Source: Pseudovirgaria hyperparasitica
Lineage: Eukaryota
Assembly (NCBI GenBank): GCA_010093815.1
Contig: ML996576.1
DNA length: 39,952 nucleotides
Reading direction: 5' to 3' (one strand)
Below, one piece after another: positions 1 to 31,709 of this stretch; position 1 is the first letter of the stretch; each line of letters opens with the position of its first letter. The notes below the pieces were generated by a model. The model did no database searches. It had not been told where the DNA came from and was given only the letters and a program-made list of their open reading frames with translations. The position numbers were made by a program, and so were the translations under genes.

Positions 1-124
1 CCTAACCCTAACCCTAACCCTAACCCTAACCCTAACCCTAACCCTAACCCTAACCCTAACCCTAACCCTAACCCTAACCCTAACCCTAACCCTAAACCTA
101 AACCTAAACCTAACCCTAACCCTA
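1..124 (+). repeat. Telomeric repeat (CCCTAA)n, left chromosome end
   Basis: About 20 tandem hexamers from base 1; three variant CCTAAA units at 91-108. Confidence 0.98.
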
Positions 125-192
125 CAACAAACCAGGTTAGTCTCATTCTTCTGGAGATCACGTCCACAAATCGACTCGAGTCGACAGGTTGT

Positions 193-965: not shown

Positions 966-1653
966 TATAATAATAATAATAATATTATATAACTATGTAG
1001 AGTAGTACTCTATAGATATATATCTTCTCTAGTCTAAGCTACTATATAAGAAGAAATCTAAGAGGAAAAACTCTCTTTACTCTATAACTATATCTTATTA
1101 AGTCTTTATATCTTCTTAAGTATATAGCTATAGAGTATATATATAGATCTATAGTCTATATTACTATTATTTTACTCTTATATAGTATATATAGTATATA
1201 TAATATATAGAGTTATTAGTTAAGGGCTACCCTTAACTAATAGTTAGAGTTCTTCTAGAGTTCTTCTAGTATATACTAGACTTCTTCTAGTATATACTAG
1301 GGTCTATCTAGTATATATCTAGTTTCTTCTAATATATATATCTAGATCTACTAGAATTAAGAGAGAGAGAGATATATAAGTATCTACTATATAACCTTCT
1401 TAGAGTACTTATTAAGCTATTATATAATATTAGAGATTCTTATTATATAGATATATATTTATCTTTATATATAGAGATTAGAGTATATTATAAGATAGTA
1501 TTATATTATATCTCTTTAGCTATATATATTATACTATAGAGATAAATTAAAGATATCTCTCTAGTATAGATAATATAGAAGCTCTATAGCTTCTATTTAG
1601 ACTTAGAGAAGTATAGATATCTAGACTTCTATTAGCCCTTTATATATCTATTA
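966..1653 (-). mobile_element. 5'-truncated, heavily RIPped 3' end of a Tad1-like LINE
   Basis: Colinear with 12871-13525 and 33802-34460: (TAA)n tail, 3' UTR palindrome, 20-mer repeats, ORF2 C-terminus. Confidence 0.85.
1214..1242. repeat. Shared palindrome copy 1 (LINE 3' UTR)
   Basis: TATTAGTTAAGGG-CTA-CCCTTAACTAATA. Confidence 0.95.
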
Positions 1654-2700
1654 AGATTATTAATATATTAAGTTATATTAGTTATAAAGTATACTATTTT
1701 CTATCTATATATCTAGTTAGTTATATTTATATATCTAACTAGTTTACTACTATCTATAGTAATTATATATAATATATACTAATACTATAGCTATAATAAG
1801 GTATCTAAATTTAAGAGAACCTACTACTACTCTTAGTAGCCTTATATATAATACTTAGATAGATATAGATTTATATCTTTATAGATACTATATTATAGTT
1901 AATCTACTACTAAACTAATATTAGAGAGTTTCTTAGTAAGATAATATACTTTATAGTCTCTTTAGAGTAATCTTATTACTTAGCTAGTAGCTTACTAATA
2001 TTAATATCTTAGTTATTATTCTAATTAACTTATAGTATCTTACTAGTAGATAGTATACTAGTTAGTTTATAGAAAGCTATTATAGTCTTATCTTATATAC
2101 TATTTAAGTTATTATCTAGAAAAACTAGCTTTATAATCTTTTTATATATCTTATAATATAGCGGTCTATTTAGAAGTAGTTTAGTAAGATAAGGTTTATA
2201 CTATTTATAAATATAAGTAGCTATAGTAGCGCCCTTAAGTCTAAAGCTATAATATTAATAGATATTCTAGTAGTATTTAACTATTTACTTTAGTACTAAC
2301 TCCTTAGTATAGAGCTTATACTAAGTATTATAGATCTAATTTAGATACTTCTATATATACTTACTAATTTTATTATTAAATAATCTTATAGTATACTTTC
2401 TATACTTATAAATTAACTTTATAGACTTAAGGTATTAGAACTTAGTCTTAGATATAACCTAATCTATATATACCTTAGCTAATATAGTTAGAAGATAGTA
2501 TAAAGGGTAGTAAACGGTTATATACTAAATAGATTAGTATCCCTTTATATATATACTCTTAGATTTCTACTAAAAGAATTTAGTAGTAATTTATTCTATA
2601 ATAGAATATACTCTATTATTCTATCTAACTATACTACTATCTAATAACTCTATTCTTATATTTAAATTACTTCTAATATAGTACTATAGTTAAGATAGTC
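1654..2700 (-). mobile_element. Extremely decayed AT-rich relic, possibly gypsy RT/RNase H
   Basis: Saturating RIP. Only faint traces resembling DHKA...NLNS..Q...DY...YKP near 2060-2140; boundaries approximate. Confidence 0.3.
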
Positions 2701-3081
2701 TAACTAGAACTAAGAAGATTAATATAATCTACTATAAATATAAGTAATACTATATTAAATAATAGAGATCCTCTATAATTAGTATTAAATCTAGCTATTT
2801 CTAACTAAGAAGTAGAGATATTAGACTAAATTATAGAACTTTCTAATAAAGAAATAGTAGATATACTAAGTAACTTCTAATAATAAGAAGCTAGATAATA
2901 AGTTATAGCGGAGCTATATAAGATATTATAATAAACTATTACTAAACTTTAGAAATATATTATAAATTAGATCTAAGAGATCTAAACTCTTAAAGAGTAG
3001 ATAGAATATATAAAACTTCTTATAAAGAGATAAGAACTTAAAGGGTCTCTTAAAGAACTACGCTAAATAATAGTAGATAGA
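2700..3081 (+). mobile_element. Old gypsy host element, segment 1 (probable gag region), continuing at 11093
   Basis: Joined to 11093 onward by the ATAGA TSD of the inserted element; left boundary approximate. Confidence 0.5.
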
Positions 3082-3321
3082 TGTAAGGATTGTAGACGTA
3101 GGATAGCAGTCTAACAGGTCATAGGAGGATTCGGGAATATATTTAGAAGGGTAGTCTACTCTCCTAACGAGATTGATTCCTGAAGAGCAGGAATCTAGTG
3201 TGTACGGCCTACTTATATAGTGGTCTCGCTTATTCTAGCTGGCTTAACCCGGGTCCACCTATCACGGACCGTACTGGGCCATAGTGGTCTAGTTAAGTCT
3301 ATCCTAGTGTCAACCCTAATA
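3082..3321 (-). repeat. 3' LTR, gypsy family 1
   Basis: Direct repeat of 10853-11092; the differences seen are transitions; TG...CA ends partly RIPped. Confidence 0.97.
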
Positions 3322-3338
3322 ATATCCTTCTTCTTTTT
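3322..3338 (-). other. Polypurine tract, gypsy family 1
   Basis: Minus-strand AAAAAGAAGAAGGATAT abuts the 3' LTR. Confidence 0.8.
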
Positions 3339-3808
3339 GTGCTTCGCCCCGAAGCACTTAGCTATATGTAAATCCGTAATTCCATAAGCGTTATGTTTGT
3401 GCGCGCATCTAATTAAATCCATGTAACGTTATCGATAGTCTTTGCATTAGTGAACTTGAGCTCTAGTTCACTTTTATTTATACACGCGCTCATCCCTTAC
3501 TTCATGGCTGCTGCCTTGGAGGTAGCTCCGCGGGTCATGTGACCGCTATATTAACTAAGCTTATATTTAGTTCTCTTGTTCTGAATTTTCTTCTCTAGTA
3601 TATCCACCTTACTCTTAAGGTAAGTCGTTAATTCGTATACTATCTCCTTTAGTTTAGATCCGTTCGGGTCTAGAGTGGTCTATTTTCGTTAGAGCTGGTC
3701 CTATGTAATCTATTCGCGTTGTTAGGGTTACTAATTTAGCTTCTTTAATCGCCTTTAAGGCTGAACGAGTATTCCACTCTTAGATCTCTAGCTAACGTGT
3801 GTGTATAG

Positions 3809-5113
3809 ATGTCTAATACTAGTCCTATTCCTAAGCCTGCCTCCTCCTCTCGTAAGACTCGCTCTAAAGGGATTACCTCTACCCCGGCTATACCGGCTAA
3901 AAAATCCACTTATCGTAGTGGTGTGAAGGCGCGCTCTAAGTTAGAGAAGAAGGCAGCTAAGGCTACTACTACTATTACTACTAACGTGGCCACTAGTCGC
4001 TCTAATCCAGGTGATTCTAGTACTGGTGTTGCGGAAGAGGTGGCTGCAAAGCCTACCTACACCTACTCGCGCCGCCTATCTACTCTACCTCCTTTAGAGG
4101 ATGAAGAAGATCTCGTCGTAGACGATAATCGAGAGTTCACGCCTTCGCCGCCTCGCTCTAAACGCTATTCCTCTTTTCGGTCTAACATAGACCGACTTAG
4201 TCGCTCTAGGTCCTTTCAGGACCTTAACATTCGCTCTAAACCTAGCCCTAGTAATAATAAGGCCTGGGTCGCCGAAGATACTAAACGTGGTCGCGGTTTA
4301 CGCCATAGGAAAACAGCGAACTACGGTTCGATATGCTTTAAGTGTATTAAGGCTCACGCCACCGGCTCTAAATATCTCTTCCGCTCTAACTCTAGTATCA
4401 GCTACTACTCTACTAACCGCGACGGGCCTATACGCCTAATCTTTAAGCTCCCTACCCGCTGCCGCCGCTATACCGTCCTCGGTAAAGTTTGTCTTTAGGT
4501 GAGTCTATTAGGCTGTTTTGGTCTAGAGTAATCTAAAGTCGTCCATACTAATGCGTTTTTAGGTTCCTATTCGTGTATAAGATACATATAACGATCTTCG
4601 CGTCCGCGAGACTCTTAGCGGTTCTAGCGGTTACCTAGCTTCTATACACAGGGAGTTTAGGGAGCGCTGTAAGCTCTTCCTAGAGGTTATCAAAGTATGA
4701 GTTTAGAAACCGTTAATTATCATTAACCTTAGCTTATAATTTTCAGTCACCGCGAGATTCCTAGCGCTTAGGCTACCTATTCTAGGGAGTCGGTTTTAGC
4801 CACTAAGGCCGCAGAAGAGATTCGTGCTGTTCCTTCCCGCCCGCCTCGTGCTACTAACGGGTCTCGCAAGAGGTCTACTAGTTCTCCTTCTAAGTCGCCT
4901 CGTAAGAGGGTATATATTCTATTCTAGATTATTCTAGACCGCGTTAGCTAACTTTAGGTCTAGTCGCTCCGCTCTAGCGCTTAGTCGTCGTCTTACCAGG
5001 CTCTAACCGAGCGCGTGGTTACTCTGGAGGATGAGGTCTCTAACCTCCGTCGCTCTATTACTCGGTTAGTTCGTTCGCTACGCTCTAAGAGTAATAATGA
5101 GATGGAGGAGTAG
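3809..5113 (+). pseudogene. Antisense accessory gene inside gypsy family 1: basic S/R-rich N-terminus, Cys-rich Zn-cluster-like motif, C-terminal coiled coil; about 4 exons
   Basis: 229-aa ORF followed by introns 4499-4562 (GTGAGT..CTAAT..AG), 4695-4732/4746 (GTATGA, acceptor ambiguous) and 4910-4963 (GTATAT..GCTAAC..TAG). Exons contain only TAA/TAG stops revertible to CAA/CAG. Confidence 0.75.
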
Positions 5114-5364
5114 CTCTGTAGCTCTATTTGCTAGGGTTTCTATGTGGTGTGTATTGGCTCTATCTGCCTAGTTTCTATCCGTTTTGGTCCTTTTTAGACC
5201 GTTTAGATACCCGTCTACCAGTTTTCTAGTAATTTAATTCTTAACTTGATGGTATTATATGCGTTCTTGTTTGTTCTGTGACTATTGAATTTTGGATTCT
5301 AATTTCCTTTGAGTTACTTGAGTGTGGGCATCGTATATAAATTAGTTTGTCTCTCTAAATTATA

Positions 5365-5414
5365 TTAGAGCACCCGAACCAGTGGCCTAGTAGTCATCGG
5401 TTCGGGTACTCTAA
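5365..5414. other. Inverted repeat / hairpin between convergent 3' ends
   Basis: TTAGAGCACCCGAACC (5365-5380) pairs with GGTTCGGGTACTCTAA (5399-5414) with one transition mismatch. Confidence 0.75.
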
Positions 5415-5739
5415 CCTTTTGTATTGTATATCACGAGTTCAATTCCGTAGTGGGGTACCTTTTTGGTTTCTTGGTCCCATGTTCTTCTCGTGTATAATGG
5501 TCCATGTTAGTCCATTCTAGACTTCTCTATGTTATTCTATTGTAATGTGTCGCGTCGCGTGCCTACAGCGGTTGTTTACGTTTTCTTCGCGTTTGGTAAC
5601 CGTGTATCGCTTAAATTATGGGGCTGCCTTACAGAGTTTTCCTAGTGTGCGTTTAGGATTCGTGATTCGACACTTCGTTCTCTACGGCATCCTTCTTCTT
5701 TTTACGACGGCCCCGACGGCGCTAGGTTTACGGTGGTAA

Positions 5740-8700
5740 CGTGTTGTCCTATAACCTCTGTTTATATGCAGCCATCGCGGTACTTAAGATATGCACCGTA
5801 GGTTTCTAGGTGTCCTTATCCTCGGTGTAGTTCTTCCAACGGATTCGATACTTTTGGACACCGTTCTCGTCGAGCCTATGTTCGACAATATGGTCCACTT
5901 CGTACACGTCTAGTCTATCTTAGAGTATAATGGAGTGTAATTGCACGTTCGTGCGTTTATACACGTTAGGTCGAAACCTTTTAAGCAATAAGACGTGGAA
6001 TACGTTATAGACTCTCATGTCGTTTCCTAGGTCGAGCTCGTAGGCTCTTATACCGATGCGACGTTTGATTCGGAAGGGACCAGCCATTTTATAATCGAGC
6101 TTTTTATTCACTCGCGACGTTCGTATGTTACGGACGTTAAGGAGGACTTCGTCTCCCTCCTCGTACGCTTGATCTTTAACTAACCTATTATAGTACTTTA
6201 TATACGACTCATTCGCTTACTAGATCATTGCGCGATAGTTGCGTGCGGTTTTAAAGATTTTAATCGCTAGTTCCTGCGCGTGGACGTTAACATCTATCGT
6301 TCGGTTGAACTAGACCGTGTAAGGTTCGAAACCTATCCTTAGACTACGTCCTAGGTTCGCCTAGAAGGGCGTAACATCTATTATACTATAACGACTATTA
6401 TTATACGCGAATTCTGCTATGCTTAGTAGAGAGGCCTAGTCGTCTTATTCGAAATTATAGAATGCACGAAGGTAGGCCTCGAGCGTTTGGTTCTATCGCT
6501 CTATCTAACCATCTGTTTATGGATGGAATGCTATTAACATGTTTCTATTCATACCGGCCATTTCGCAGAATGACGTCCAGAATTTGGACGTGAATGTACT
6601 CCCTCGGTCCGTAACGATCCTTTTTGGTATACCATGGACCTTGATAATCTTATTCTGGAATACTTGTACCAGTTCTTTTAATGTGATCGTCTTCCACATA
6701 GGGACGTACCTAGACATTTTTATGAGTCTATCCACGACAATAAGAATTAAATCATAACTTATCCTAAGCATCTCGCTTGGAGGCAAGTTAACTATAAAAT
6801 CCATAGTAATATCTTCCTATACAAAGAGGGGGACTAGTAGAGGCTGCAAGTTCCCATATGGCTTGTGCCTAGGTGCCTTTATTCTTTGACAAATCGGATA
6901 AGTAGCTATCCATTCTTCGACGTACTTAGGTATATCTTCCTAAAAATAGTACTAACGAATCGAGCTTAGGGTGCGTACATACCCGAAATGTCCTGCTAGG
7001 TCAGCGTCATGGTATCGGCTAACTACGGTAAATCGTGCGTTGCCCGTTGGCACATAGTACTTTCTATTATAGTAGAGCAAGCCGTCCACGAAGGTCCACT
7101 TATAGTCTACTTCGGTCCGTAATAACCTATCTTACTATATTTTACGCAACTTTAAAACTGTCGGGTCTGTCTTTTATAGATCCACGATTAACTAGGCGAG
7201 GTCTACTTAACATACACGCCGGGCACCATCGCCCTCCCTAACAGCGCCGATAAATGGCTCGCTAGGGACTTCGGTACCGCGTCTTTAGTCACCGGCTTCG
7301 GTCTTATAAATTCGATTACCGGTATCGGCGTTAGCATCTCGCTAATCGTCGGATAACTTATTATCTAACCTCGTCCTTGAGAGTTGGGCCTACAGCTACT
7401 CCAGGACCCTATGGCCACTATGATCCTAGGCGCCTTCTTTATAGTTAGGTCTTCTTAATATCCCATTAGCTAGGTTTATACTTCTAGGTCGATGGTAGAT
7501 CATAAAGTAGAAATTTATAAGCTACTTAGCCTATCGAACCTATCGACGATTTAAAACCGTCGTACTCATGAACCCCTTTAAGTTATGGTAATTAGTTAGT
7601 AACTTAACGTCATGTATAGCACCTTTAAGATAATATCGCCACTACTTAAACGACTCTACTATTACTAGTAGCTCTTGGTTATGAATAGTGTATCTAGTCT
7701 CGACGTCGGCCATCTTACGCGAGAAGAACGCAACTAGATACTATTAGACCTTTTTGGACTCTATTAGTCTAGGCTAGGAGAGTATGCCCGAGATTATAAA
7801 TCCTAATACATTAGTTTCGACGCGAATAGGTTTGGTTAGGTCGAAGTACACTAGTAATAGGGCGGTTAGGAATGCTTCTTTAATCTTCTCGAAGGATATT
7901 CTTTCGACCTTAGTTAATTTAATAGATTATAATTCGATATTACGCTGTTTCTATCTACCACGGACCGTAATAGACGAGTCGGTAGTAGTAGTGCGCGCAT
8001 TAAGTGGTGCGGCTAAACGGGAGAAGTGTTTAACAAATTTTCGGTAGTAGTTGGCGAAGCCAATAAAGACACGTATGTCTCGAACGGATTTTGGTTCAGG
8101 CTAGTCCATAATAGTAGTAACTCTATCTCTCTCCATGGTTATACCTTGATTAGTAATAACGAAGCCAAGAAAGTTAACATGGTCCTAATGGAACTCGCAT
8201 TTGGATAGCTTAATATATAGCTTATGCTTTTCTAGTCTGTCTAGGACTGTACGTACGTACTGGATATGCTTCTCCTCGTTATCTAAGAAGATAAGGATGT
8301 CATCTAGGTACACGATACATGTCGTGTCGAGTAGGCCTGCTAGCGCGTTATTAATGTACGCTTGGAAGGTGCCTAGCGCGTTGGTTAGTCCAAAAGGGAC
8401 CACGGTGTACTCAAAGTGTCTATAACGGGTCCTAAAAGCCGTTTTCCATTCGTCGCCTTCCTTAATGCGAAGGCGATGGTAGGCGTCACGTAGATCGAGC
8501 TTGGTAAAGATCTTTACGCGCCCTAGTCTATCGATAGACTCGGAGATAAGAGGTAGTAGATAACGATTCTTTCGCGTGATGTTATTTAGGCCACGGTAGT
8601 CGATACATAGACGGAGGCTCCTATCCTTCTTCTTTATAAAGAGGATTAGAGCTCCGGCTAGGGATATACTAGGCCTAATCTATCCTCGCGTAAGGTTCTT

Positions 8701-9430
8701 TTTAATGTATTCTCGAAGGGCTTATAACTCGGGTTCTAAAAGAGGGTAGATGGGTCCATGTGGAGGTTGCTGGCCGTCTTCGAGATCAATAGTAAGGTCG
8801 GTAGATTGGTATTAAGGTAGTTCGGAGGAATCGATCGCTAACGCGACATGTTAGTACATTTTATACTAATATAGTAGGTTTTCGTCCACTTTAATACTAA
8901 GCTTACTATTTTACGTGAGTAAGAGTATGTAGATAGTAGAGATCGCCTTCTCGCAATCTTTCTGGAATTATTCGTCGTCGATAAGCTATACTAGTTCCCA
9001 TTAAGGTGGGTTCATACGCCAGCCAGCTATCTTCTTAAGGAAGTCTAGTTTTGGGTTATATTTCTTAAGCTACGGCATACCTAGGATTATGTCGAAGGGA
9101 CTGTCTGCCACGATAAAGGTTAAGCAGCAGAGTTTCCATTTCCCTCCGCTGTCCCAGATGCCGTATTTGATGGTGCAGGTGCCGTGTAACTTAATGGGAC
9201 CGTCGATGCCATGGAACATGGCACCTATTAGAGCTTGGATGTCGGCGTTAAGTTCTCGTGCTCGTTAGGTCGACATGACGTTAGTAGCCGACCCACTATC
9301 GAGTATTATAGTCCAATATTATCCACGAGGGACCTCGATGGGTCTAGCCTATAGTTCGATGTACTATTTAGCGGATTACCCCTCTATTATGGTCGCGCCT
9401 ACGAGTCGCGAGGGTTTCTTATAGGCTATT
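5740..9430 (-). pseudogene. pol: pol (protease, RT, RNase H, integrase, chromodomain), gypsy family 1
   Basis: ILDSGS near 9300; VPFGLTNA and VYLDD (8185-8403); MDFIVNLP and IVTDRGSTF (6517-6804); GPFRI (5920-6111); chromodomain YEVDHIVEH...YRIRWKNY near 5800-5910; end approximate. Confidence 0.95.
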
Positions 9431-10811
9431 AGTTTTTTATATTCTATGCTAGGCAGTTAGGCGCGATGTGTCCTAGCTACTAGCACTTATAGTATATAAC
9501 TGGTTAGTTAGTTATATTAGCACTCGGTGGCTTCCCCAAACGGCACTTAGGTGCTATATGGCCTATTCTACTATAGGTGTAGTAAGTGACTTTAGATTAT
9601 TTATGCGAGTCGGTCCTCGTATCTCGATGTATCGATTGGTAGGGAGATCCACGATACGATCCGCGTGGTTTTGAATTCGAGGCGTGGTAGTGGCCTCGTA
9701 ACGTCCCGCGAGATCTGTTACTAAATCGGTTTTGGTTAGACGATTTTACGTTGGATTGGATTGTTAGGGATAGTCATGCACTAGCGCGGCGTTAATTATT
9801 TATTATACGCTAGTATCGCTCCGCGAGGTTTATAAGAGCTTAGAGGTCTATAGGGATTATCGTTATAAGGTCGAGACGGTCCTTTATATTTAGGGCGAGG
9901 GACCGTTTAAAGTCGTCGTACTATCGAATCATACGATCTTCTTCGGCTTCTCTCTAGAGGGGCCGAAGGTATTTAAGAAGTTGTAACGGTAACTAATTAT
10001 CTCGTTGTCGAGTCTTGAAGATATAGCCCTAGGCCTAGTCGCGTCGTTTAGCCCTATCGCCAAAATATTAGAGGAGAAATTCGGTGAACGTGTCCTAGTT
10101 GTAGGCATCCTTAGGATGTTTAATTCGGTGTGCTATCCAACGTTCTAAAGGCGTCGGGTCGAGGTAGTTCTAGGCGAATCTAATTTTATCGCTATCGTTC
10201 GTGAATAGATGGAAGAATCGGCTACATTAGTAAGCCCATGCGTGGAAACTCTTTCTACTTTTACCATCGAAGTGAGGTGGTTTCTTAGGTCGGGGTAATT
10301 GGGATAGTAGTGGACTAGGATGGATCGTTTTAGTTGGTATAGGTCCATATGGATATAGATTAGTCGTTACTAGAACCGAAGCGCGTAATACAGCTTCAAG
10401 TCTCGCAGTGCGTCCTCGAGCTTCGTCGAGTTCGCGTAGTTATTACTCGAGTTAAACCTATCGTTACCTCTCTTCGTGTAGTCTGGTATACACGTTATCA
10501 TGAGGTGTAGTTAACGTTAGGCGATTCTAACGGATTAACTCGTTAACGTTAATAAGGTCTAGCCTCGTGTTAAGGTTAGGTCTAGTATAGTTTAAACTAG
10601 ACCGAGATAGAGTATGATAGACTCCATCCTCGTGTTCTATAATATCTTCTATAGTTACACGGAATATCGTGCGAGTTATCGGTGCGATGGCCTGTAAGGT
10701 GTAGTCATCGGTAGAAGTAGTTATAGGTAGACTATTCTCCTCGTTCAGGTTAGGAGAAGGTCTACTATAAGAGGCGGTACCACGAGTGTTATGACGAGTG
10801 GTTAGAGCCAT
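9430..10811 (-). pseudogene. gag: gag, gypsy family 1
   Basis: ATG at 10811, 41 nt inside the 5' LTR; CX2CX4HX4C knuckle at about 9452-9495; A-AAA-AAC slippery heptamer at 9438-9432 before pol. Confidence 0.85.
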
Positions 10812-10852
10812 TCCTATGAACTACCGTCGTGCTATATAAAGAGAAATCAAAA

Positions 10853-11092
10853 TATAAGGATTATAGACGTAGGATAGTAGTCTAATAGGTCATAGGAGGA
10901 TTCGGGAATATATTTAGAAGGGTAGTCTACTCTCCTAACGAGATTGATTCCTAAAGAGTAGGAATCTAGTGTGTGCGGCCTACTTATATAGTAGTCTCGC
11001 TTATTCTAGCTGGCTTAACCCGGGTCCACCTGTCACGGACCGTACTGGGCCATAGTGGTCCAGTTGAGTCTATCCTAGTGTCAACCCTAACA
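10853..11092 (-). repeat. 5' LTR, gypsy family 1
   Basis: Direct repeat of 3082-3321; minus-strand TATATAAG box. Confidence 0.97.
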
Positions 11093-12870
11093 ATAGATAA
11101 CTTTCTATACTAATTTAGATAGAATTAGTTTATCTACTACTAGAGTTATAATAATCTATTATAATTCTAGCTACTTTATTACTAATTTACTCTATTCTAT
11201 CTCTAGATATATTAAAATCTAAAGATCTAACTATATTTATAGAGAAGAACTAAAAGAAGTAGAAAGACTAGAAGAGAGACTATAAAAAGTACTTTCTTAA
11301 TAGCTCTCTACTCTTTTCTACTAAAGTATAATATATTTTATTTAGAGAATAATACCTAGACTTATAATTCTATAATTAATAGAATAGATAGAAGAAAGTA
11401 TAGCTACTATCTATAATAATCTAGAAATATTTAGCTATATTTATACTAAATACTCTTAGAATAGATAGAGAATATAAAAGAAAGATACTATCTAAGTTAA
11501 GAAGTATAGTATAATAACTAAACTAGATATCTACTTAACTACTATAATACCTTTAAAACCTATAGAATAATATTCCTATACTATAGAAGAATATTTATAT
11601 ATTCTAGTTTTATAAAGTACTACTTCTATTAATCCGCGAAAGACTATAAATAATATTATTAAGTTTTAACTATCTATATAAATTAGAGAAGAAAGCTAAT
11701 AAATACTACTATATTCTTAAGAAATATAGCTCTCTAGGTAAAACTAATAAACTCTATATAGATTAGAAATAAGATTAATTAAATATATTTAATTAAGAGT
11801 AACCTTACTATAATTAGTACTAGAAGAGTATAAATTAGAGTAGAAATATATTAAGAGAATACTAAAATAATTAAAATAGTACTTATTAATATAGAAAAGA
11901 ATAAGATATAGACTTAAATATAATATCTATTATAAAATAGTAGGATTATAGTATACTTTATTACTATAAGTATAGAGAAATAGAATATATTTTATCTAAC
12001 TATAAGAATCTAAAAAAAGAATAGACTAGTACAAAAGACCTAACCATATTCTTAGCTAAATTATATATACTTAGAAGAAGCTATAGCGCCTTCTAGTAAG
12101 TAAAGATCTAATATTACTAAAAGTATTATTATCTATAGTAAATAGTAATAAGACTATATAGACCCTTATAGATACTAGTATAGAAGATAACTATATTTTA
12201 TTAATTCTTATAAAGAAGTATAGATTATCATACAACCTTAGTAAAGCTAGCTAAACTATTATAGTTAATAGATATAAAGTTAGAACTTTAGATAAAGCTA
12301 TAATAAATTATAAAGTTTATAACTTAAAGATAATAAAATAGTAGATATCTAATAAATTTATTATAGCTAATATTAGCTAATAGAATATAATTCTAGAGAT
12401 ACCTTAGCTTAAACACCTAAACCCAATCCTTAATTTTTAGAAGAAAATATTAACATTCCAATAATACTATAGTAAATTATACTAGTAAGTTATAACTATT
12501 AGTAAGGAGATATAGAACCTTACTATATAGACTTAATTATTACTAATCTATCTTATATTTCTATTAATTATTAATAAAGATAAGAATAATAGTAATAATT
12601 AGAGTAAAGACACGCTATCTAATATATATTTATAGTATATAGATATATTTTTAGTAGGAGATATATTATTTCTCTCTAATTATAGACTATATAAGCTAAA
12701 GATTAAGCTTAAAGAGGGAGTAGATATCTCTTATAGTCTACTTTATCTACTTTTAAGACTAGAACTTAAAGTTCTTTATAAATATATTAAAGAATACCTT
12801 AGAAGAGACTAGATATATTATAGTATATTATTAGCTAGTATATCTATTCTCTTTATAAAGAAGAAAGATA
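11093..12870 (+). mobile_element. Old gypsy host element, segment 2 (gag, protease, RT start)
   Basis: De-RIPped motifs LIDT(G) near 12170, IL(GM)P(W)LKHLNP near 12390-12425, and ILF(V)KKKD ending at 12870. Confidence 0.85.
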
Positions 12871-13105
12871 ATAATAATAATAATATTATATAACTAGGTA
12901 GAGTAGTACTCTATAGGCCTATGCCTCCTCTAGTCTAAGCCACTATATAAGAAGAAACCCTATAGAGAAAAACTTCCTTATATCTATAACTATATCTCGT
13001 TAAACCTCTATTTCGTCTTAAGTATATAGCTATAGAGTACGCCTATTAGCCTATAGCCTATATTACTATTATTTTACCCTTAGGTAGCACGTATAGGTGC
13101 GGAGG

Positions 13106-13136
13106 TTATTAGTTAAGGGCTACCCTTAACTAATAA
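13106..13136. repeat. Shared palindrome copy 2 (LINE A 3' UTR)
   Basis: 14-bp perfect arms, CTA spacer. Confidence 0.95.
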
Positions 13137-13219
13137 TCGGGGTTCTCCCGGGGTTCTTCCGGTATATATCGGGTTACTACCGGCGTATACTAGGTCTCTT
13201 CTAGTATATATTTCCGGGT

Positions 13220-16200
13220 CCACTAGTACTAGAGGAGTAGTAGATATATAAGTATCTATCGGGAGACGTCCTTAGGGTACTTATTAAGCTATTATATAAT
13301 ATCTAAAGTCTTCGTGACGTAGATAAGCTATTACTATTATATATAGAGGTTAGGGTATATAGCTAGATAGTGGCGTATTATACCTCTCCGGCCGCACGCC
13401 TTATACTATAGGGAGGTATTAGGAACGCCTCTCTTATAGATATAGTATAGAAGTCCTATGGCGCCTATTCGGGCTTAGATAAGTATAGATGCTTAGGCTT
13501 TCGTTAGCCCTTTATATATCTATTTACTTGGTTCCTTCTATGGCCCTCGAATCTACTCTAGGTACCTATTCTACTAGAAGGTCTAGTAGGTACGGAGTAC
13601 CTCTTTCTACTTATCTTAAGTCTATAACCGCATGTTTTTCACGAGTTCTTAAAGGCTCTACTAGTCTAGGAGAGCGTCCGGGTTATCTCGGACTTCTTAT
13701 ACTACTTAGCTAGAGTCGGCTTCTATTAAGTACCTATACCGTATTCGATTCCGGCCTATATATAGGAGTGCGCGGTAATATATACTAATTCGTACACGTA
13801 GCGCGGCGAAAGTATATTCTACGTTTCCTATGCGTTCCTATACTTATTATTTAGTAAAGTATACCACGCTCTATATCTAGTAGAAGTTATATATACTTAT
13901 GACGTCTATCTCGCGTCGTAGTAGTACCATATTAGTAGCTTTATATACGCCTAATATAAGACGGAGTATACGGTTCTATATAGATTCGAGCTTCATTCGC
14001 CTAGTCTATATAAGGGCTATATACTAGTACTCGTGTCCGTACGTGAAGGCGGGTCGTACTATAGATATATATAGCTAGCGTGCCTTATCCCGGGCGGTTC
14101 CCTATATAGAGACTATAATCCATCGTATAGTGGCTTCTACCCGGAGGGCCCTAGAGACGGTATATACCACTTATGGTCCCTATTTAAGCTTACTATCTAG
14201 TATAACTCCGAGCGCGCGTATACTTTATACTAGTAGTTCGTTAAATACGTTGATTCGGGGGCGTCGTTCGCCTTCCCTAGTTACCTATTTCCCTTAACGA
14301 TTAATAAAGTGCATAAGCTGGTATTTCTCTAGGGCGAACTTTACTCTATGGCGTTTTACCTACTAGAGGTACCTCTTATAGTCCTATTCTAGTCGTCTAC
14401 ACGTTCGGTTAGTATTATTATTAATAGCTAGGAGGTATATATTATCGGTGTATCCGACTACCTCTATATACTTTATTCCTTAAAGAAGGTCTACCGTAAA
14501 GAAGAGGAATAGAATCGGAGAGATGGTGCTCCCTTATAGGATGCCGTATACCGTCTCTTTGTATTCGCTCTGGTATCTAGGGATATATATCTAAGTTGTT
14601 CTTCCTATAAGGAATGACTATATAAAGCGTGTAATCCATTCTAGTATTCGTCTCATCCGGAGGTTATAAATAAGTCTTATATAGTTTATCTTATTAAACG
14701 CTCCGGCCATATTAAGGGAGAGGAGCGATACTACCCGTCCCTATTTCTATGCGGCCTGGACGACTTTAATAATATATTAGATAGCTATTATTAGAGAGCT
14801 ATCTACCTTTACCTTCTAGTTCGGAGGGAGGAGATTATATTCCTATGCCGCGGTACTTATCTTCTTCGCTATTATAGCCTCTAGTATCTTATCTAGGTAG
14901 AAGAGAAGGGCGATTAGTCTCTATCCCTTTAGGGAGTTAGAGCTCTTTCCTAGCTTCGGGAGTATAATAGTATAGACGACTCGGAAGCTCTAGAGGTGGT
15001 ACCCCTACGTGACGCATGCTTAGAATATATAAGTAATAAGTGGTAGGGTCGCTTTTATAGTACTTTTTAGGTATTAATTTAGAATTCCATCTGGTCCGGG
15101 TGCTTTATCATTTAGGAGTATCTTAATAATATTAAGTATGTCCTCCTCCGTAACTTCTTCGGGGATATCTACCATATATAGATATTCGGCGCCGTGAACG
15201 TCTAATAGGTCTACTAGTTCCGGGAGAGGGAACATAGTCTTCCGTAGAGCCTTAGTTTTCTTAAGGCCCGTAGAGTATATTCTCCCCTAATATATTAGGG
15301 AAGGCATAAGTAGTAGGGGTATCGGAGTGTCTACGCCCTTAGCCTATTTCGCCATGCGCCATAGCCCTATTACGTATCGTGTCTATTAACTAGTAATTAT
15401 ACGCTACTATTTACGCCTTTTATTACAGAGGACTTTATCGTGTTATCGTATCGCTTCCTTCTATTCTTCCTATAACTCGGGTATTCTTATACGGTATACG
15501 CGTCTATATAGCCTTCGGGCGTCTTATCTACTTTCCTATACTTAAGGAATCCCCTTTACTTCCGAGGGCCGGTATATTTAGTATAGTACGTGTTTATTTC
15601 TCGCATTCTAGTATATTTATAGGAGTATCTATACGGCCTAGTCTATGGCTAGGTCGTTAGATATATCGACTATAGAGGGATCTAGGATCGCCGATTCTAG
15701 GTCCTTTAGGTACTTTTCCTAGTCGGTGTCCTTCTATATCTATTGTCCCCGTTATTTATTCGGGGTATACACGTTTATTACGGTTTCTATATATTCATGG
15801 TCGGAATCCGTCTATACCTAGCCTAGGCGGTAGTATTAGATCCGGTGACTAATGTACTCCGTAGCGAAGGTAAGGTTAAGCATAGACCCGTCTTCGTCCT
15901 ATTTATATTTTTTCTATATAACTTATCCTATAGGTGTAAGTAGGTATAGGAAGTCGTAGTAGCGGGTACGTAGTTCCCTTACTCTAAGTTCTTCCCTAAC
16001 CACGGCTAGGCCTCCCTACTATTAGTAGTAGAGGTTAAAGTCTTCTAGGAGGATGTGTTGCCCTGGTTCCGTGGTACCCTCGAGTATCTCGTCTAGTATA
16101 AGTATACGTTATTAGTTATATATGTTATATATATATAGGGGGCCTATATCTATTTATAGGTATAGTATTATCCTAAGGTTATCGCGCTCGGTATATAACC

Positions 16201-19569: not shown

Positions 19570-20643
19570 AACTTCTTTTACATCCCCAAGAGGCTAACTT
19601 GGTCTATTTAGGGTAATATAGCGAGATACACACCTTAATCGATAGAGTACACCGAGTACACTAACTACTACTACACGCACGTACGTGTAGCGTCGAAACC
19701 AAGACGTTATTACCGTGTAAAGATATATACACACCCTCTTAAAATCCTCACGGAGATAGAGGCACGGACTATACTACTAGAACGCCGACACGCTAACCCC
19801 CTTTTATTAGTTAAGGGCAGCCCTTAACTAATAAATATGGCGGCCTTAGGCACCGATATACCCTAGCATATACTAGATATACCCCTACCGGTACGATAGA
19901 AAAGGCCATATAGTAATATTACTAAGGGTAACTATACACCTATCTAAAACGTAGAATACACCTAAAGGCGCACGCCGCTATAGATAGATAGAATAAAGGG
20001 GACCCTAAGAGGGGAAACCCTCCTAGATCGCATCGACTACTAGATAGCACGTATAGAGAAGGAAGCCGGAGAGGGCTAGAAGACCCTCCTATATATATTC
20101 TAGAACCTTATCCGGAACCTAAAGGGAATTACGGAGGAGGAGAAGAAGATATAACTAGAAGGACCGGAGGGTAGGCTCGACCGAATAGAGGCCAGCCTAC
20201 GTAGAATCTAGGAGGAACTTACTTAAGGTAAGCGCCCTAGTATATAGGTATAAATAGTAGTAACACTAGAGGCTATACCACGGGCCCCCCGGACCGGCGA
20301 CGCGGCGTATAGTATACGCGTTATAATCTAGAATAAGGACACCCTAGTATAGGTCTAGTAAGTATCCCTAAAGGATATAGTAAGTAAGATTAATAAATAA
20401 AAGGGAATATAGTTAAACGTCATCGCTACTAAACTTATACTAGGAGGAGTAGTACTTACCACGATAACGAATATCGCGTAGTAGACCATCTCGCGCGATC
20501 CGAACGCGATTAGTAGTATCTTCCTAGGCGCCTCTATTAGGGCAGCCATATACCTAATATAGATATACTCTATATCTATAAGCGGACAGGTTATCGGAGA
20601 AGAGGATATCACGTAGATAGAATAGTTAAACGAGCGAAAATAC
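19570..20643 (+). mobile_element. LINE copy B, 5' part (5' UTR and ORF1 start, ATG 19837)
   Basis: Homologous to the reverse complement of 17070-18148; ends at the gypsy-2 LTR. Confidence 0.9.
19803..19835. repeat. Shared palindrome copy 4 (LINE B 5' UTR, just before ATG)
   Basis: 15-bp perfect arms, CAG spacer. Confidence 0.95.
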
Positions 20644-21015: not shown

Positions 21016-21161
21016 TATACCTCCCCGGCCCATAGAACTACTACCCTTAGTAGTATAGTAACCGTGTAAGAAACCGTGTGAAGAATGCCTAAAAGAAAGA
21101 CCTTAATACGAATAAAATGCGCCCCTAGTAAACCTCTCAGCGCGGGTAAACCTTAGCCCGG

Positions 21162-21194
21162 ATTATTAGTTAAGGGTAGCCCTTAACTAATAAT
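21162..21194. repeat. Shared palindrome copy 5 (gypsy 2, just after the dioxygenase-like ORF)
   Basis: 15-bp perfect arms, TAG spacer. Confidence 0.95.
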
Positions 21195-21219
21195 TAGATA
21201 GGTTTTTAGGCGTCTAATC

Positions 21220-31705: not shown

Positions 31706-31709
31706 AAAT

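What the first reader, a model, noticed from the sequence alone, without database searches (positions are those of the whole stretch)
3809..5113. Antisense, intron-containing accessory gene inside a chromovirus
Seen: a 2.3-kb stretch between the chromodomain and the PPT holds a plus-strand gene with canonical fungal introns (4499-4562, 4695-4732/4746, 4910-4963, and possibly a 5' UTR intron from GTAAGT at 3620). The product is about 380 aa, with a basic disordered N-terminus, CFKC...(C)...CRR(C)TVLGKVCL(Q)VP resembling an expanded Zn-cluster, an RKR..SPRKR NLS-like patch and a terminal heptad repeat (LTERVVTLEDEVSNLRRSITRL). Established: introns survive retrotransposition only when antisense to the genomic RNA, which fits. 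Inference: an element-encoded nuclear DNA/chromatin-binding regulator. Both complete gypsy families here therefore carry different accessory genes at the same position.
Basis: partly seen in the sequence, partly recalled or inferred. Interest (0 to 1): 0.72.

Follow-up and report, generated by a model that had tools for sequence, protein, structure and literature searches.

The report
Antisense spliced gene inside fungal retrotransposon
A mutation-riddled fungal jumping gene carries on its opposite strand a genuine four-exon extra gene for a probable zinc-binding nuclear protein; its closest relatives share the gene, and extra genes of this kind are already known from other retrotransposons.

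Summary
Window 3082-11092 is a complete, RIP-mutated Ty3/gypsy chromovirus on the minus strand, with 95%-identical LTRs and an ATAGA target-site duplication. Between the pol end and the 3' LTR, the plus strand carries a four-exon gene (3809-5113, about 380 codons). It has only 4 in-frame stops in 382 codons, against 45 in 1138 in pol. Its 229-codon first exon was matched by 0 of 1000 dinucleotide shuffles. Contigs at least 80% alike from the same organism cover the module along with the rest of the element.

No sequence homologue of the product was detected. The three closest complete relatives by reverse transcriptase are the window, L001 and L002. All three carry an antisense gene at the same place with the same build: six cysteines ending "C-L-x" directly before intron 1, three introns in phases 0-2-0, a basic patch before intron 3, a helical last exon, and a duplicated polypurine tract around the module. 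The L002 gene is an annotated 286-aa hypothetical protein of Stemphylium lycopersici.

Other clades carry antisense genes with canonical Zn2Cys6 spacing plus a coiled coil. Function as a nuclear, dimeric regulator is inferred, not shown. Antisense genes are known in plant elements and in fungal Boty (brtn), so this is a new member of a known kind.

The parts
3077..3081 (.). Target-site duplication ATAGA, left copy
   Evidence: Read. The same 5 bases follow the other LTR at 11093-11097. Contigs of runs X1 and X2 join 3076 to 11093, skipping 8016 bases, which is the empty site.
3082..3321 (-). 3' LTR of the chromovirus (the element reads on the minus strand)
   Evidence: Direct repeat 3081-3324 / 10852-11095, 95% identical. 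The TG..CA ends are read; one end is RIP-changed in each copy.
3324..3338 (-). 3' polypurine tract next to the LTR
   Evidence: Read. It is an exact 15-nt copy of 5689-5703.
3339..3357 (-). Hairpin just 5' of the PPT in the genomic-RNA sense (8-bp stem, GGG loop)
   Evidence: -11.6 kcal/mol, z -3.29, 1 of 200 shuffles folds as well. Comparable stems next to the 3' PPT of L002 and L001 were seen by eye only; they were not significant.
3339..3808 (+). Presumed promoter and 5' UTR of the antisense gene
   Evidence: Inference only. L002 has a stretch of similar length (about 460 nt) between its 3' PPT copy and its ATG. No RNA data are available.
3809..4498 (+). Exon 1: basic, Ser/Thr/Arg/Lys-rich N-terminus, then the six-position cysteine module; the last codon is TAG
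   Evidence: 229-aa open frame. 0 of 1000 shuffles reach this length.
4334..4492 (+). Cysteine module: C-x2-C-x19-[Y]-x18-C-x2-[Y]-x6-C, where two positions are now Tyr
   Evidence: Codon list; alignment to L001 and L002. The module ends 'C-L-x' directly before a 5' splice site, as in L001 and L002.
4499..4562 (+). Intron 1 (64 nt, phase 0)
   Evidence: GTGAGT...ACTAAT...TAG. L001 and L002 have an intron at the same position.
4563..4696 (+). Exon 2 (ends at 4694 in model a, at 4696 in model b); one in-frame TAA
4697..4746 (+). Intron 2, preferred model b (50 nt, phase 2, 5' site now ATGAGT); the alternative model a is 4695-4732 (38 nt, phase 0)
   Evidence: Both models keep the frame open. Phase 2 matches intron 2 of P0122/L002 and of the L001 model. 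The pre-RIP G at 4697 is inferred, not seen.
4747..4909 (+). Exon 3 (starts at 4733 in model a); one in-frame TAG; ends with the basic patch RKR...SPRKR (about 4859-4909)
   Evidence: P0122 ends its third exon with SPAKR before an intron of the same phase.
4910..4963 (+). Intron 3 (54 nt, phase 0)
   Evidence: GTATAT...GCTAAC...TAG. It holds 4 stops in the exon frame.
4964..5113 (+). Exon 4: one in-frame TAG, four leucines at heptad spacing (5003-5086), acidic end, stop at 5111-5113
   Evidence: There are weak coiled-coil Pfam hits only, the best at E 0.0048 and below the family cut-off.
5689..5703 (-). Second, pol-proximal copy of the polypurine tract, inside the basic C-terminal tail of pol
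   Evidence: Exact 15-nt repeat of 3324-3338. The same duplication flanks the antisense gene in L002 and L001.
5755..9312 (-). pol: RT, RNase H, integrase, Tf2-type SH3 and chromodomain, RIP-broken but without frameshift
   Evidence: Pfam RVT_1 at 1.7e-34, RT_RNaseH, Integrase_H2C2, rve, SH3_Tf2-1 and Chromo at 3.2e-06. A single tblastn segment to P0003 covers residues 36-1204.
9313..10850 (-). gag and protease region
   Evidence: Read-through translation shows RIP-damaged CCHC-like knuckles. No Pfam hit; there are 31 stops in 517 codons.
10853..11092 (-). 5' LTR

Best explanation
The stretch is a RIP-inactivated copy of a genuine protein-coding gene. The gene belongs to the retrotransposon itself and is read from the strand opposite to gag-pol.

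The gene sits in a module bounded by two identical copies of the element's polypurine tract. One copy lies at the end of pol and the other lies against the 3' LTR. The gene would be transcribed towards pol from its own promoter, in the roughly 470 bases next to the 3' LTR.

Because the gene is antisense to the genomic RNA, its three introns are not removed from the RNA that is reverse-transcribed. They are therefore copied along with the element.

The roughly 380-aa product has:
- a basic, disordered N-terminus;
- a six-cysteine module, probably zinc-binding, with two positions now Tyr in this copy;
- a bipartite basic patch that looks like a nuclear localisation signal;
- a C-terminal leucine zipper.

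Most likely it entered the nucleus, dimerised through the zipper and bound nucleic acid or chromatin. In that role it would tune the element's own expression or the host's response to it. This is how antisense accessory proteins of retroviruses and of plant retrotransposons are thought to act.

In this copy the gene is dead: it has four premature stops, two lost cysteines and probably one lost splice donor.

Shown: the gene structure, its place inside the element, its presence in many related sequences of the same genome, and the shared architecture with the closest relatives.
Inferred: transcription, splicing, zinc binding, nuclear location, dimerisation and any regulatory role.
For: Coding signal.
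- The model has 4 stops in 382 codons, against 45 in 1138 in pol of the same RIP-hit element.
- 0 of 1000 dinucleotide shuffles reach the 229-codon run.
- Three GT..AG introns each restore the frame.

Part of the element.
- The gene lies between the Chromo hit and the 3' LTR of an element with 95%-identical LTRs and a 5-bp target-site duplication.
- RIP indices in the gene are like or stronger than those in pol.
- 14,978 contigs of run X1 and 6,027 of run X2, at least 80% alike, cover all 30 bins, including the module.
- 463 of the 479 variable places in X1 are transitions.

Relatives.
- In the RT tree the window groups with L001, L002 and L006, with SH-aLRT 97.
- L001 and L002 each carry an antisense gene between pol and the LTR.
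- The junction 'C-x2-[C/Y]-x5-6-C-L-x' followed directly by GTRRGT occurs 4 times in 638 kb of loci plus the window, both strands. Three of the four are these genes.
- P0122 is a database protein (hypothetical protein, Stemphylium lycopersici). It maps exactly onto L002 as 4 exons with intron phases 0, 2, 0, and its third exon ends in SPAKR.
- The longest-ORF splice model of L001 also has 3 introns in phases 0, 2, 0.
- The PPT is duplicated around the module in all three elements.

Cysteine module.
- Tyr 4469 aligns to a Cys of L001 and L002.
- Other clades of relatives carry antisense ORFs with six invariant Cys at Zn2Cys6 spacing plus a long helix.
- A profile of those ORFs finds LAC9 at E 0.0085. 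7 of the 23 listed PDB rows are Zn2Cys6 proteins.
- 13 of the 15 listed Foldseek rows for their model are Zn2Cys6 DNA-binding domains, though none reaches E 0.001 or better.
- Of 39 loci with at least 800 nt after pol, 10 have the paired motif on the antisense strand. The controls give 1 on the sense strand, and 2 antisense and 0 sense within pol.
Against: No sequence homologue.
- There were 0 hits among 1293 candidates.
- There were 0 hits in 1.84 billion representatives.
- There was no tblastn or tblastx hit in the 78 related loci.

No significant similarity to the positional counterpart P0122.
- The whole product gives z 1.19, with 44 of 300 shuffles as good.
- The best exon pair gives z 2.56, with 11 of 500 shuffles as good.
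- RIP-aware scoring gives z 1.15.
- Kinship with L001 and L002 therefore rests on position, gene structure, short motifs and the pol tree.

No family or fold assignment.
- No Pfam family, including Zn_clus and bZIP, is hit by the window's product or by any relative.
- The cysteine spacing in this clade does not fit the Zn2Cys6 rule.
- The AlphaFold model of the cysteine exon is unusable, with pLDDT 39.5.
- hhalign of the window's exon 1 against the canonical-spacing group finds nothing, with probability 0.1.

Other limits.
- Intron 2 is either unusually short (38 nt) or needs an inferred pre-RIP base.
- The L001 model was chosen by maximising ORF length, which favours a tidy result.
- Runs X1 and X2 may be the very sample the window was assembled from, and summed contig depth is not a copy number.
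- Some sister elements (L007, L012) have only 128-251 nt between pol and the LTR, so the module is not universal.
Confidence: 0.55

Rival explanations
1. Same gene, different job. The protein is real and element-borne, but it is not a DNA or chromatin regulator. It could instead bind RNA, chaperone the genomic RNA or the integration complex, or block host silencing. The cysteines would serve protein-protein or RNA contacts.
For: - No DNA-binding family is hit.
- The N-terminus is rich in repeated R-S-K/N units. These are encoded by the CGCTCTAA repeat family and are as compatible with RNA binding as with DNA binding.
- The fold of the expanded cysteine module could not be modelled.
Against: - Related clades have canonical Zn2Cys6 spacing followed by a coiled coil, which is the Gal4-type DNA-binding layout.
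- Their weak PDB and Foldseek hits are nearly all to such DNA-binding domains.
Confidence: 0.2
2. Passenger gene. A host gene, with its introns, was captured once in antisense orientation by an ancestor of this clade. It has been carried along without any role in the element's life cycle.
For: - The module is flanked by a 15-nt direct repeat, the duplicated PPT. That looks like the scar of an acquisition just behind the original PPT.
- Sister elements without the module exist.
- A review states that the origin of most antisense ORFs in plant elements is unknown and that capture is one option (PMC7264820, passages).
Against: - No host homologue was found anywhere. The 3 hits are the element-borne genes themselves.
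- The gene is intact, with splice sites, in L002/P0122. It is also kept, with the same structure, in elements whose pol is only about 40-45% identical to the window's.
- The accessory type tracks the RT tree, with one change per type.
- Both PPT copies stay identical within each of the three elements while differing between elements. That suggests constraint rather than a decaying scar.
Confidence: 0.12
3. The antisense RNA is what matters. Transcription across the 3' end of the element yields RNA that pairs with the genomic RNA and feeds or tempers RNA silencing. The open frame would be secondary.
For: - Antisense transcripts without coding capacity, and a dsRNA-based role, are discussed for other retrotransposons (PMC7264820, passages).
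- The gene converges on pol.
- No protein homologue exists.
Against: - The frame is far better kept than chance allows.
- A 286-aa spliced frame is intact in L002.
- Cysteine positions and intron phases are kept between elements.
- The two roles do not exclude each other.
Confidence: 0.08
4. Not a gene, or an unrelated nested insertion. It could be a chance open frame in spacer DNA, or the remnant of another mobile element that landed in this copy.
For: - No homologue and no Pfam domain were found.
- The module is flanked by a direct repeat.
Against: - 0 of 1000 shuffles reach the open run.
- The stop density is lower than in pol.
- No terminal inverted repeats bound the module.
- There is no similarity to any other part of the window.
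- The module is covered by thousands of related contigs of the same organism.
- The same architecture occurs in L001 and L002.
Confidence: 0.03

Closest known systems
[quoted passage not shown] 2011, Virology 417:248)
   Same: [quoted passage not shown] I know this only through citing papers: PMC7264820 section 5, PMC8365987 methods passage and PMC4227169 passage.
   Different: The paper is not held and I had no brtn sequence, so homology, introns and domains could not be compared. No database protein of any name matched the window's product. brtn could correspond to one of the canonical-spacing groups seen here, or to none of them.
P0122, hypothetical protein DDE82_009063 of Stemphylium lycopersici (286 aa), which is the antisense gene of locus L002
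   Same: - It has the same place and orientation in the closest complete relative by RT.
- It has four exons with intron phases 0, 2, 0.
- It has a cysteine module ending C-L-x at intron 1 and shares the FRSN motif.
- It has an SP-x-KR patch before intron 3 and a helical C-terminal exon.
- A duplicated PPT surrounds its module.
   Different: Overall sequence similarity is not significant. The window's product has a basic N-terminal extension of about 170 aa that P0122 lacks. P0122 is intact, whereas the window copy is RIP-broken.
Antisense additional ORFs of plant Ty3/gypsy elements (maize Grande gene23, rice RIRE2, Silene Retand with its TRP28 domain, Phaseolus PvRetro13)
   Same: They are antisense genes in a long pol-to-3'-LTR region, present in most copies, with no clear database homologues. 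Some are nuclear or predicted to bind DNA, and a regulatory role has been proposed (PMC7264820 passages; PMC11963269 passages).
   Different: They come from plant lineages that are not chromoviruses (Retand, per PMC11963269) and carry other protein domains (TRP28, SMC). No sequence relationship was found. Here the gene has three introns and a cysteine module.
HBZ of HTLV-1 (from memory, plus the mention of HTLV antisense genes in PMC7264820 and PMC11963269)
   Same: It is an antisense, spliced gene at the 3' end of a retroelement, with its promoter at or near the 3' LTR. Its product is nuclear and has a leucine zipper.
   Different: HBZ is a bZIP protein. Here no basic region abuts the zipper, no bZIP family is hit, and a cysteine module is present instead. 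It is an analogy only.
Gal4-type Zn2Cys6 binuclear-cluster transcription factors (Pfam PF00172)
   Same: Both have six cysteines in two C-x2-C-containing halves, followed by a basic stretch and a dimerising helix. The second half of the window's module (C-x2-[Y]-x6-C) fits the rule. Related clades fit the whole rule and give weak hits to LAC9, GAL4, PUT3, LEU3, Pho7 and Hap1.
   Different: The window's first half is stretched: x19 where the rule has x6, and x18 where it has x5-12. No Pfam hit was obtained for the window or for any relative, and the fold was not modelled.

Membership tests
Ty3/gypsy chromovirus | LTR pair with target-site duplication; pol ordered RT - RNase H - integrase, with a C-terminal chromodomain | tested here: met
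   LTRs are 95% identical and the TSD is ATAGA. Pfam hits are RVT_1, RT_RNaseH, Integrase_H2C2, rve, SH3_Tf2-1 and Chromo, in that order in one frame.
Antisense additional ORF between pol and 3' LTR (aORF-3R) of LTR retrotransposons | Lies inside the element, between the end of pol and the 3' LTR, on the strand opposite to gag-pol | tested here: met
   The gene is at 3809-5113 (+), the Chromo hit ends near 5755 (-), and the 3' LTR is at 3082-3321.
Antisense additional ORF between pol and 3' LTR (aORF-3R) of LTR retrotransposons | Present in all or most copies of the family, not in one copy only | tested here: inconclusive
   Contigs at least 80% alike from runs X1 and X2 cover every bin of the module, at summed depths within the range seen over pol. 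Depth is not a copy number, single copies could not be told apart, and the runs may be the window's own source.
Antisense additional ORF between pol and 3' LTR (aORF-3R) of LTR retrotransposons | Kept in related elements of other genomes | tested here: met
   L001 and L002 are the closest complete relatives by RT. They carry a gene with the same place, orientation, cysteine-module junction, intron number and phases, and a flanking PPT duplication. Sequence similarity itself is not significant.
Antisense additional ORF between pol and 3' LTR (aORF-3R) of LTR retrotransposons | Own promoter and antisense transcript | not testable with these tools
   No RNA holder was listed, and no fungal promoter tool is available.
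brtn of Boty-like elements | Sequence homology to the brtn product | not testable with these tools
   The paper and the sequence are not held. No named protein matched the window's product.
Zn2Cys6 binuclear cluster (Gal4 type, PF00172) | Spacing C-x2-C-x6-C-x5-12-C-x2-C-x6-8-C | tested here: not met
   The window has C-x2-C-x19-[Y]-x18-C-x2-[Y]-x6-C. Only the second half fits, and two positions are Tyr. The rule is met by relatives of other clades. The rule itself is recalled from memory.
Zn2Cys6 binuclear cluster (Gal4 type, PF00172) | Match to the family profile | tested here: not met
   No Zn_clus hit at E up to 1 or 10 for the window's exon 1 or its cysteine part, nor for 15 antisense ORFs of relatives at E up to 0.1.
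Zn2Cys6 binuclear cluster (Gal4 type, PF00172) | Fold of the DNA-binding domain | tested here: inconclusive
   The model of the clade's cysteine exon has pLDDT 39.5 and is unusable. For the canonical-spacing relatives the model has pLDDT 73. Foldseek gives no row at E 0.001 or better, but 13 of 15 listed rows are Zn2Cys6 domains.
bZIP | Basic DNA-contact region directly N-terminal of a leucine heptad repeat | tested here: not met
   Four heptad leucines are present (5003-5086). The residues before them are Ser/Gln-rich, and the basic patch lies across intron 3. No bZIP Pfam hit was obtained at E up to 1.

The most novel reading that the evidence does not exclude
A large radiation of ascomycete chromoviruses may carry, antisense to gag-pol, a gene for a fungal-type six-cysteine (Gal4-like) protein with a dimerising helix. 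That would be a transcription-factor-like regulator owned by the retroelement.

Three structural versions each map to one clade of the RT tree:
- intronless, with canonical cysteine spacing;
- intron-split, with canonical spacing;
- the stretched, three-intron version seen in this window.

In the window's clade the module sits between two identical polypurine tracts. These elements would then also have a second, internal plus-strand primer site, as lentiviruses and Ty1 do.

If true, the elements would bring their own DNA-binding factor to steer LTR activity or host silencing. They could also be a source of, or a sink for, the very large Zn-cluster factor family of fungi.
Probability: 0.35. Interest if true: 0.7.

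Novelty: new member of a known kind. Interest (0 to 1): 0.5.

Why it matters
Accessory genes are what turn a bare gag-pol element into something that negotiates with its host. In fungi only one such gene (brtn of Boty) seems to be in print in the library searched, and it is not in current genome annotation (PMC8365987, passage).

The window's gene is not a curiosity of one RIP-degraded copy. An antisense gene with the same build sits in the closest relatives, and antisense cysteine-module genes sit in about a quarter of 39 related metagenome elements. Where annotated at all, they are 'hypothetical proteins'.

Three consequences follow:
- These genes give a handle on how fungal retrotransposons are regulated.
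- They are a caution for annotation, because such genes are masked together with the repeats.
- They offer a testable case of a retroelement-borne, fungal-type DNA-binding protein.

The duplicated polypurine tract hints at how the module was acquired, or at a second plus-strand priming site.

For this particular copy the biological consequence is nil, because the gene is dead.

Tried and rejected
- Whole genome: none is held for this window, so other copies could not be aligned. The window holds no second copy of 3325-5800.
- RNA evidence: no RNA holder was listed.
- Read laying: runs X3 and X4, which carry the same species label as X1, gave 2 and 0 contigs. The table of differing letters was cut (483 rows not shown). 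The states of the cysteine/tyrosine codons and of base 4697 in other copies were therefore not seen.
- tRNA-like look of 5340-5460: ARAGORN found no tRNA in the window. Rfam found nothing in 3000-11200 at E up to 1.
- Direct homology of the product:
  - The search for homologous proteins gave 0 hits.
  - The search of protein representatives gave 0 hits.
  - Pfam gave nothing for exons 1-2 and only sub-threshold coiled-coil hits for exon 4.
  - tblastn and tblastx against the 78 loci gave nothing better than E 0.36.
  - hhalign against the canonical-spacing group gave probability 0.1.
- Similarity to P0122 or P0121 was not significant for whole proteins, exon by exon, or with a scoring scheme that lets each T have been C and each A have been G.
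- Canonical groups A and B align only over the 34-column cysteine module (hhalign E 0.0061, probability 6). A single origin of all versions is therefore open.
- ESM Atlas: only unnamed Ascomycota clusters were found, at scores 0.93-0.96 for the L039 ORF and 0.85 or less for P0122. These are leads only.
- Structure of the stretched cysteine exon: pLDDT 39.5, so it was not searched further.
- Homodimer test of the C-terminal 42 residues: complex prediction never accepted the job because its queue was full. Dimerisation rests on the heptad pattern alone.
- PPT duplication in groups A and B: none was found with an 11-nt seed.
- Second gypsy-like element (20630-31995): Pfam found only RNase H and integrase on the minus strand and nothing on the plus strand. 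There is no open run of 70 aa or more in 20930-25500. I did not follow this further.
- The very long 'open frames' at 32.2-33.6 kb are a run of N.
- Earlier findings of this scan: none.
- Literature: searches found no paper describing an antisense cysteine-module or Zn-cluster-like gene in fungal LTR retrotransposons, other than the citations of brtn. Zhao et al. 2011 is not held. The supplementary figure of PMC8365987 that draws brtn and other extra ORFs is a PDF and was not seen. Either could show that part of this is already described.
Full report
SETTING

The window starts with telomere repeats, (CCCTAA)n at 1-125. It is a mosaic of blocks with 14-23% G+C and blocks with 35-47% G+C. TpA/ApT is 1.3-2.3 throughout, and (CpA+TpG)/(ApC+GpT) is 0.0-0.07 in the AT-rich blocks and 0.4-0.7 in the others. 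This is the signature of fungal repeat-induced point mutation (RIP). No whole genome is held for the window.

THE ELEMENT

- A direct repeat, 3081-3324 / 10852-11095, is 95% identical. Read base by base, the LTRs are 3082-3321 and 10853-11092. They are flanked by the same five bases, ATAGA, at 3077-3081 and 11093-11097.
- Contigs of two runs of the same organism join 3076 directly to 11093, skipping 8016 bases. That is the empty site in other copies of the older, far more RIP-degraded repeat into which this element inserted.
- On the minus strand, one frame read through RIP-type stops gives Pfam RVT_1 (1.7e-34), two RNase H families, Integrase_H2C2, rve, the Tf2-type SH3 domain and Chromo (3.2e-06), in that order.
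- A single tblastn segment to a related polyprotein (P0003 residues 36-1204) runs from 9312 down to 5773 without a frameshift.
- The element is therefore a complete, RIP-killed Ty3/gypsy chromovirus of 8011 bp.

THE OBSERVATION

Between the chromodomain (about 5755-5904) and the polypurine tract next to the 3' LTR (reverse complement of 3324-3338), the plus strand holds an ATG-started frame of 229 codons at 3809-4498. It ends in TAG directly before GTGAGT.

The gene model has four exons:
- Exon 1: 3809-4498.
- Exon 2: 4563-4694 or 4563-4696.
- Exon 3: 4733-4909 or 4747-4909.
- Exon 4: 4964-5113.

They have GT..AG ends and ACTAAT / GCTAAC branch sites.

Intron 2 needs correcting:
- 4695-4746 breaks the frame.
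- 4695-4732 keeps it but is only 38 nt long.
- 4697-4746 (50 nt) keeps it with a normal length, a pyrimidine-rich 3' end and phase 2. Its 5' end now reads ATGAGT, which a single TpG>TpA RIP change would make from GTGAGT.
- I prefer 4697-4746, because phase 2 is what the two relatives have (see below). The ancestral G at 4697 is inferred, not seen.

Either way the product is 378-382 aa with four internal stops, three TAG and one TAA. All four are of the kind RIP makes.

IS IT MORE THAN CHANCE?

Yes.
- The model has 4 stops in 382 codons. The same element's pol has 45 in 1138, and its gag frame has 31 in 517. The accessory frame is thus better preserved than the frames whose coding nature is beyond doubt.
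- The other five frames over exon 1 hold 6, 37, 6, 11 and 44 stops.
- None of 1000 dinucleotide-preserving shuffles of 3322-5754 reaches an open run of 229 codons (mean 88.5, maximum 187).
- Apart from a run of N this is the longest open run in the window.

DOES THE MODULE BELONG TO THE ELEMENT?

- It lies inside the LTR pair.
- Its RIP indices are like or stronger than those of pol.
- It resembles nothing else in the window.
- No inverted repeats bound it.
- When contigs of two DNA runs of the same organism were laid on 3000-11200 at 80% likeness, 14,978 and 6,027 contigs matched. Every one of the 30 bins was covered.
- Summed depth over the module was within the range seen over pol. In run X1 it was 54,000-129,000 over 3274-5739 and 39,000-233,000 over the rest.
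- 463 of the 479 variable places in X1 were transitions, mostly C>T and G>A.
- Many diverged, RIP-affected relatives of the whole stretch, module included, therefore exist in that genome.

Caveats:
- The runs may be the window's own source.
- Depth is not a copy number.
- The table of differences was cut, so the bases of special interest were not seen in other copies.

THE PRODUCT

The product has no detectable sequence relative:
- There were 0 hits among 1293 word-sharing candidates.
- There were 0 hits in 1.84 billion cluster representatives.
- No Pfam family was hit, beyond sub-threshold coiled-coil hits on the last exon.

RELATIVES OF THE ELEMENT

The pol has thousands of relatives, the best 46% identical. 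A profile of the twelve best was used to fetch 78 related loci from metagenome contigs. None holds sequence similar to the module.

Many of them do have open frames on the antisense strand just after the pol stop. Read closely, these fall into two groups.
- Group A is intronless, about 180-190 aa. It has six invariant cysteines at C-x2-C-x6-C-x8/9-C-x2-C-x6/7-C followed by a long helix.
- Group B has a charged N-terminal exon, an intron before or within a cysteine module of the same spacing, a basic KRK patch, a helix and an acidic tail.

How often this occurs:
- Of 39 loci with the pol end mapped and at least 800 nt beyond it, 10 have the paired motif on the antisense strand downstream.
- The controls give 1 on the sense strand there, and 2 antisense and 0 sense in an equal length of pol.

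What the group A and B products resemble:
- Pfam's Zn_clus is not hit.
- A profile of group A finds LAC9 at E 0.0085. 7 of its 23 listed PDB rows are Zn2Cys6 proteins (LAC9, GAL4, PUT3, LEU3).
- An AlphaFold model of group A has mean pLDDT 73. In Foldseek it gives no row at E 0.001 or better, yet 13 of the 15 listed rows are Zn2Cys6 DNA-binding domains.
- Groups A and B align to each other only over the cysteine module (E 0.0061, probability 6).

THE WINDOW'S OWN CLADE

By RT the window groups with L001, L002 and the truncated L006 (SH-aLRT 97, quick IQ-TREE). L002 also has the highest pol identity, 44.5%. L001 and L002 each carry an antisense gene with a stretched cysteine pattern like the window's.

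Five features tie the three genes together.

1. The splice junction after the cysteine module.
   - In all three genes the module ends C-L-x directly before a 5' splice site.
   - The site is GTGAGT in the window, GTAAGT in L002 and GTAGGT in L001.
   - That composite pattern occurs only 4 times in 638 kb of loci plus the window, on both strands. Three of the four are these genes.
2. Gene structure.
   - A profile search found P0122, a 286-aa 'hypothetical protein' of Stemphylium lycopersici.
   - It maps letter for letter onto L002 as four exons with intron phases 0, 2, 0.
   - The longest-ORF splice model of L001 has three introns in phases 0, 2, 0. It was chosen by ORF length, so it is somewhat biased.
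   - The window's preferred model has the same phases.
3. A basic patch before intron 3.
   - The third exon ends with SPRKR in the window and SPAKR in P0122.
   - In L001 a KKRR patch lies shortly before the intron.
   - The last exon is helical, with an acidic or charged end.
4. Cysteine positions.
   - Tyr 4469 aligns to a cysteine of both relatives.
   - With the shared FRSN motif as anchor, Tyr 4403 aligns to a cysteine of L002. I placed this one by eye.
   - TGY>TAY is a RIP-type change.
   - P0123, a RIP-affected relative of the L001 gene, shows Cys-to-Tyr in the first C-x2-C.
5. The duplicated polypurine tract.
   - In all three elements, an exact copy of the polypurine tract at the pol end is repeated against the 3' LTR, with the antisense gene in between.
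   - No such duplication was found in groups A and B.

What speaks against kinship:
- Sequence similarity between the window's product and P0122 or P0121 is not significant by any measure tried.
- The model of the stretched cysteine exon is useless, with pLDDT 39.5.
- Kinship of the three genes therefore rests on place, orientation, gene structure, short motifs and the pol tree, not on alignment statistics.
- On the RT tree each of the three gene versions needs only one change (0 of 500 label shuffles as low). This fits vertical descent with the elements.
- Some sister elements (L007, L012) have only 128-251 nt between pol and the LTR, so the module is not universal.

HOW IT MOST LIKELY WORKS

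- The gene is antisense to the genomic RNA, so its introns survive reverse transcription. This is established reasoning and is the principle behind intron-marked retrotransposition reporters (recalled from memory).
- The gene would be transcribed from the roughly 470 bases between the 3' PPT and its ATG. L002 has a stretch of similar length there.
- The product combines a basic disordered N-terminus built of repeated R-S-K/N units (the CGCTCTAA repeats), a six-cysteine module, a bipartite basic patch and a four-heptad leucine zipper.
- The best reading is a nuclear, dimeric, zinc-dependent nucleic-acid or chromatin binder that tunes the element's expression or the host's response.

My odds:
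- About 0.85-0.9 that this is a real element-borne coding gene, dead in this copy.
- About 0.4-0.5 that its product is a DNA or chromatin regulator.

None of transcription, splicing, zinc binding, localisation or dimerisation could be tested. No RNA run was listed, and the complex predictor never took the job.

COMPARISON WITH WHAT IS KNOWN

- Antisense extra ORFs between pol and the 3' LTR are a described feature of plant elements such as Grande, RIRE2, Retand and PvRetro13. Some of their products are nuclear or predicted to bind DNA, and a regulatory role has been proposed by analogy with retroviral accessory and antisense genes (PMC7264820, passages and section 5; PMC11963269, passages).
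- In fungi the precedent is brtn of Boty-like elements of Botrytis and Sclerotinia. I know it only through citing papers. The original paper is not held, so I could not compare sequences.
- Seven full-text searches found no description of a cysteine-module or Zn-cluster-like antisense gene in fungal retrotransposons.
- The finding is therefore a new member of a known kind.
- The wider pattern, of clade-specific antisense genes with Gal4-like cysteine modules across many ascomycete chromoviruses and a duplicated PPT in one clade, may be new. It rests on weak fold and profile evidence.

VERDICT

Noticed in passing
window 3324-3338 and 5689-5703; L002 3340-3353 and 5211-5224; L001 5639-5672 and 7559-7592: The polypurine tract is present twice, once at the end of pol and once against the 3' LTR, with the antisense gene in between. 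The two copies are identical within the window and within L002, and their last 14 bases are identical in L001 (74% over the 34-nt repeat), but they differ between elements. This could be the scar of how the module was acquired, or a second internal plus-strand primer site. It was not seen in the other two clades.
   Followed up: partly
window 3339-3357 (minus strand): An 8-bp GC-rich hairpin with a GGG loop lies directly 5' of the 3' PPT in the genomic-RNA sense (-11.6 kcal/mol, z -3.29). L002 and L001 have different stems with a G-rich loop at the same place by eye, but their folds were not significant.
   Followed up: partly
window 1-125: Telomere repeats (CCCTAA)n lie at the very start, so the window is a chromosome end packed with RIP-degraded repeats.
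   Followed up: no
window 1000-3076 and 11098-12900: The chromovirus inserted into an older repeat that is far more RIP-degraded (about 21% G+C, CpA+TpG index 0.0-0.07). Related copies of that repeat without the insertion exist in the same organism (joints 3076>11093). Similar repeats also lie at 12868-13524 and 33802-34459.
   Followed up: partly
window 3854-4245 and 5076-5088: The motif CGCTCTAA recurs in the coding frame at spacings that are multiples of three. It gives repeated Arg-Ser-Lys/Asn units in the N-terminal half of the product, which is an RS-like, possibly phosphorylated, low-complexity region.
   Followed up: no
window 5365-5414: A 16-nt inverted repeat (94% complementary, 18 nt apart) lies in the convergent gap between the antisense gene's stop and the pol end. 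The stretch looked tRNA-like by eye, but ARAGORN and Rfam found nothing.
   Followed up: yes
window 20630-31995, with an inverted partial copy at 38018-39948: There is a second, 11-kb LTR element (LTRs 91% identical) with RNase H and integrase hits on the minus strand. It has roughly 3.5 kb between the estimated pol end (my estimate from the integrase hit) and the 3' LTR. No open run of 70 aa or more and no Pfam hit were found there.
   Followed up: partly
window about 32.5-33.5 kb: A run of N (an assembly gap or withheld stretch) causes spurious 330-460-codon 'open frames' in all six frames.
   Followed up: yes
loci L039, L045, L037, L027, L054, L055, L057, L071 (group A); L016, L022, L023, L024, L040, L047, L048, L052 (group B): Related chromoviruses from metagenomes carry antisense ORFs just after pol. 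Group A and five group-B loci show six cysteines at canonical Zn2Cys6 spacing plus a coiled coil. L023 and L040 were put in group B only by similarity of the C-terminal part of their ORFs. Each version is confined to one clade of the RT tree. In group A the ORF's 3' end overlaps the end of pol.
   Followed up: partly
L004 6541-7056 (minus strand): The antisense ORF downstream of pol in this relative is a fragment of a DDE transposase (PF13843, E 1.1e-08). It is a nested DNA-transposon remnant, not an accessory gene.
   Followed up: no
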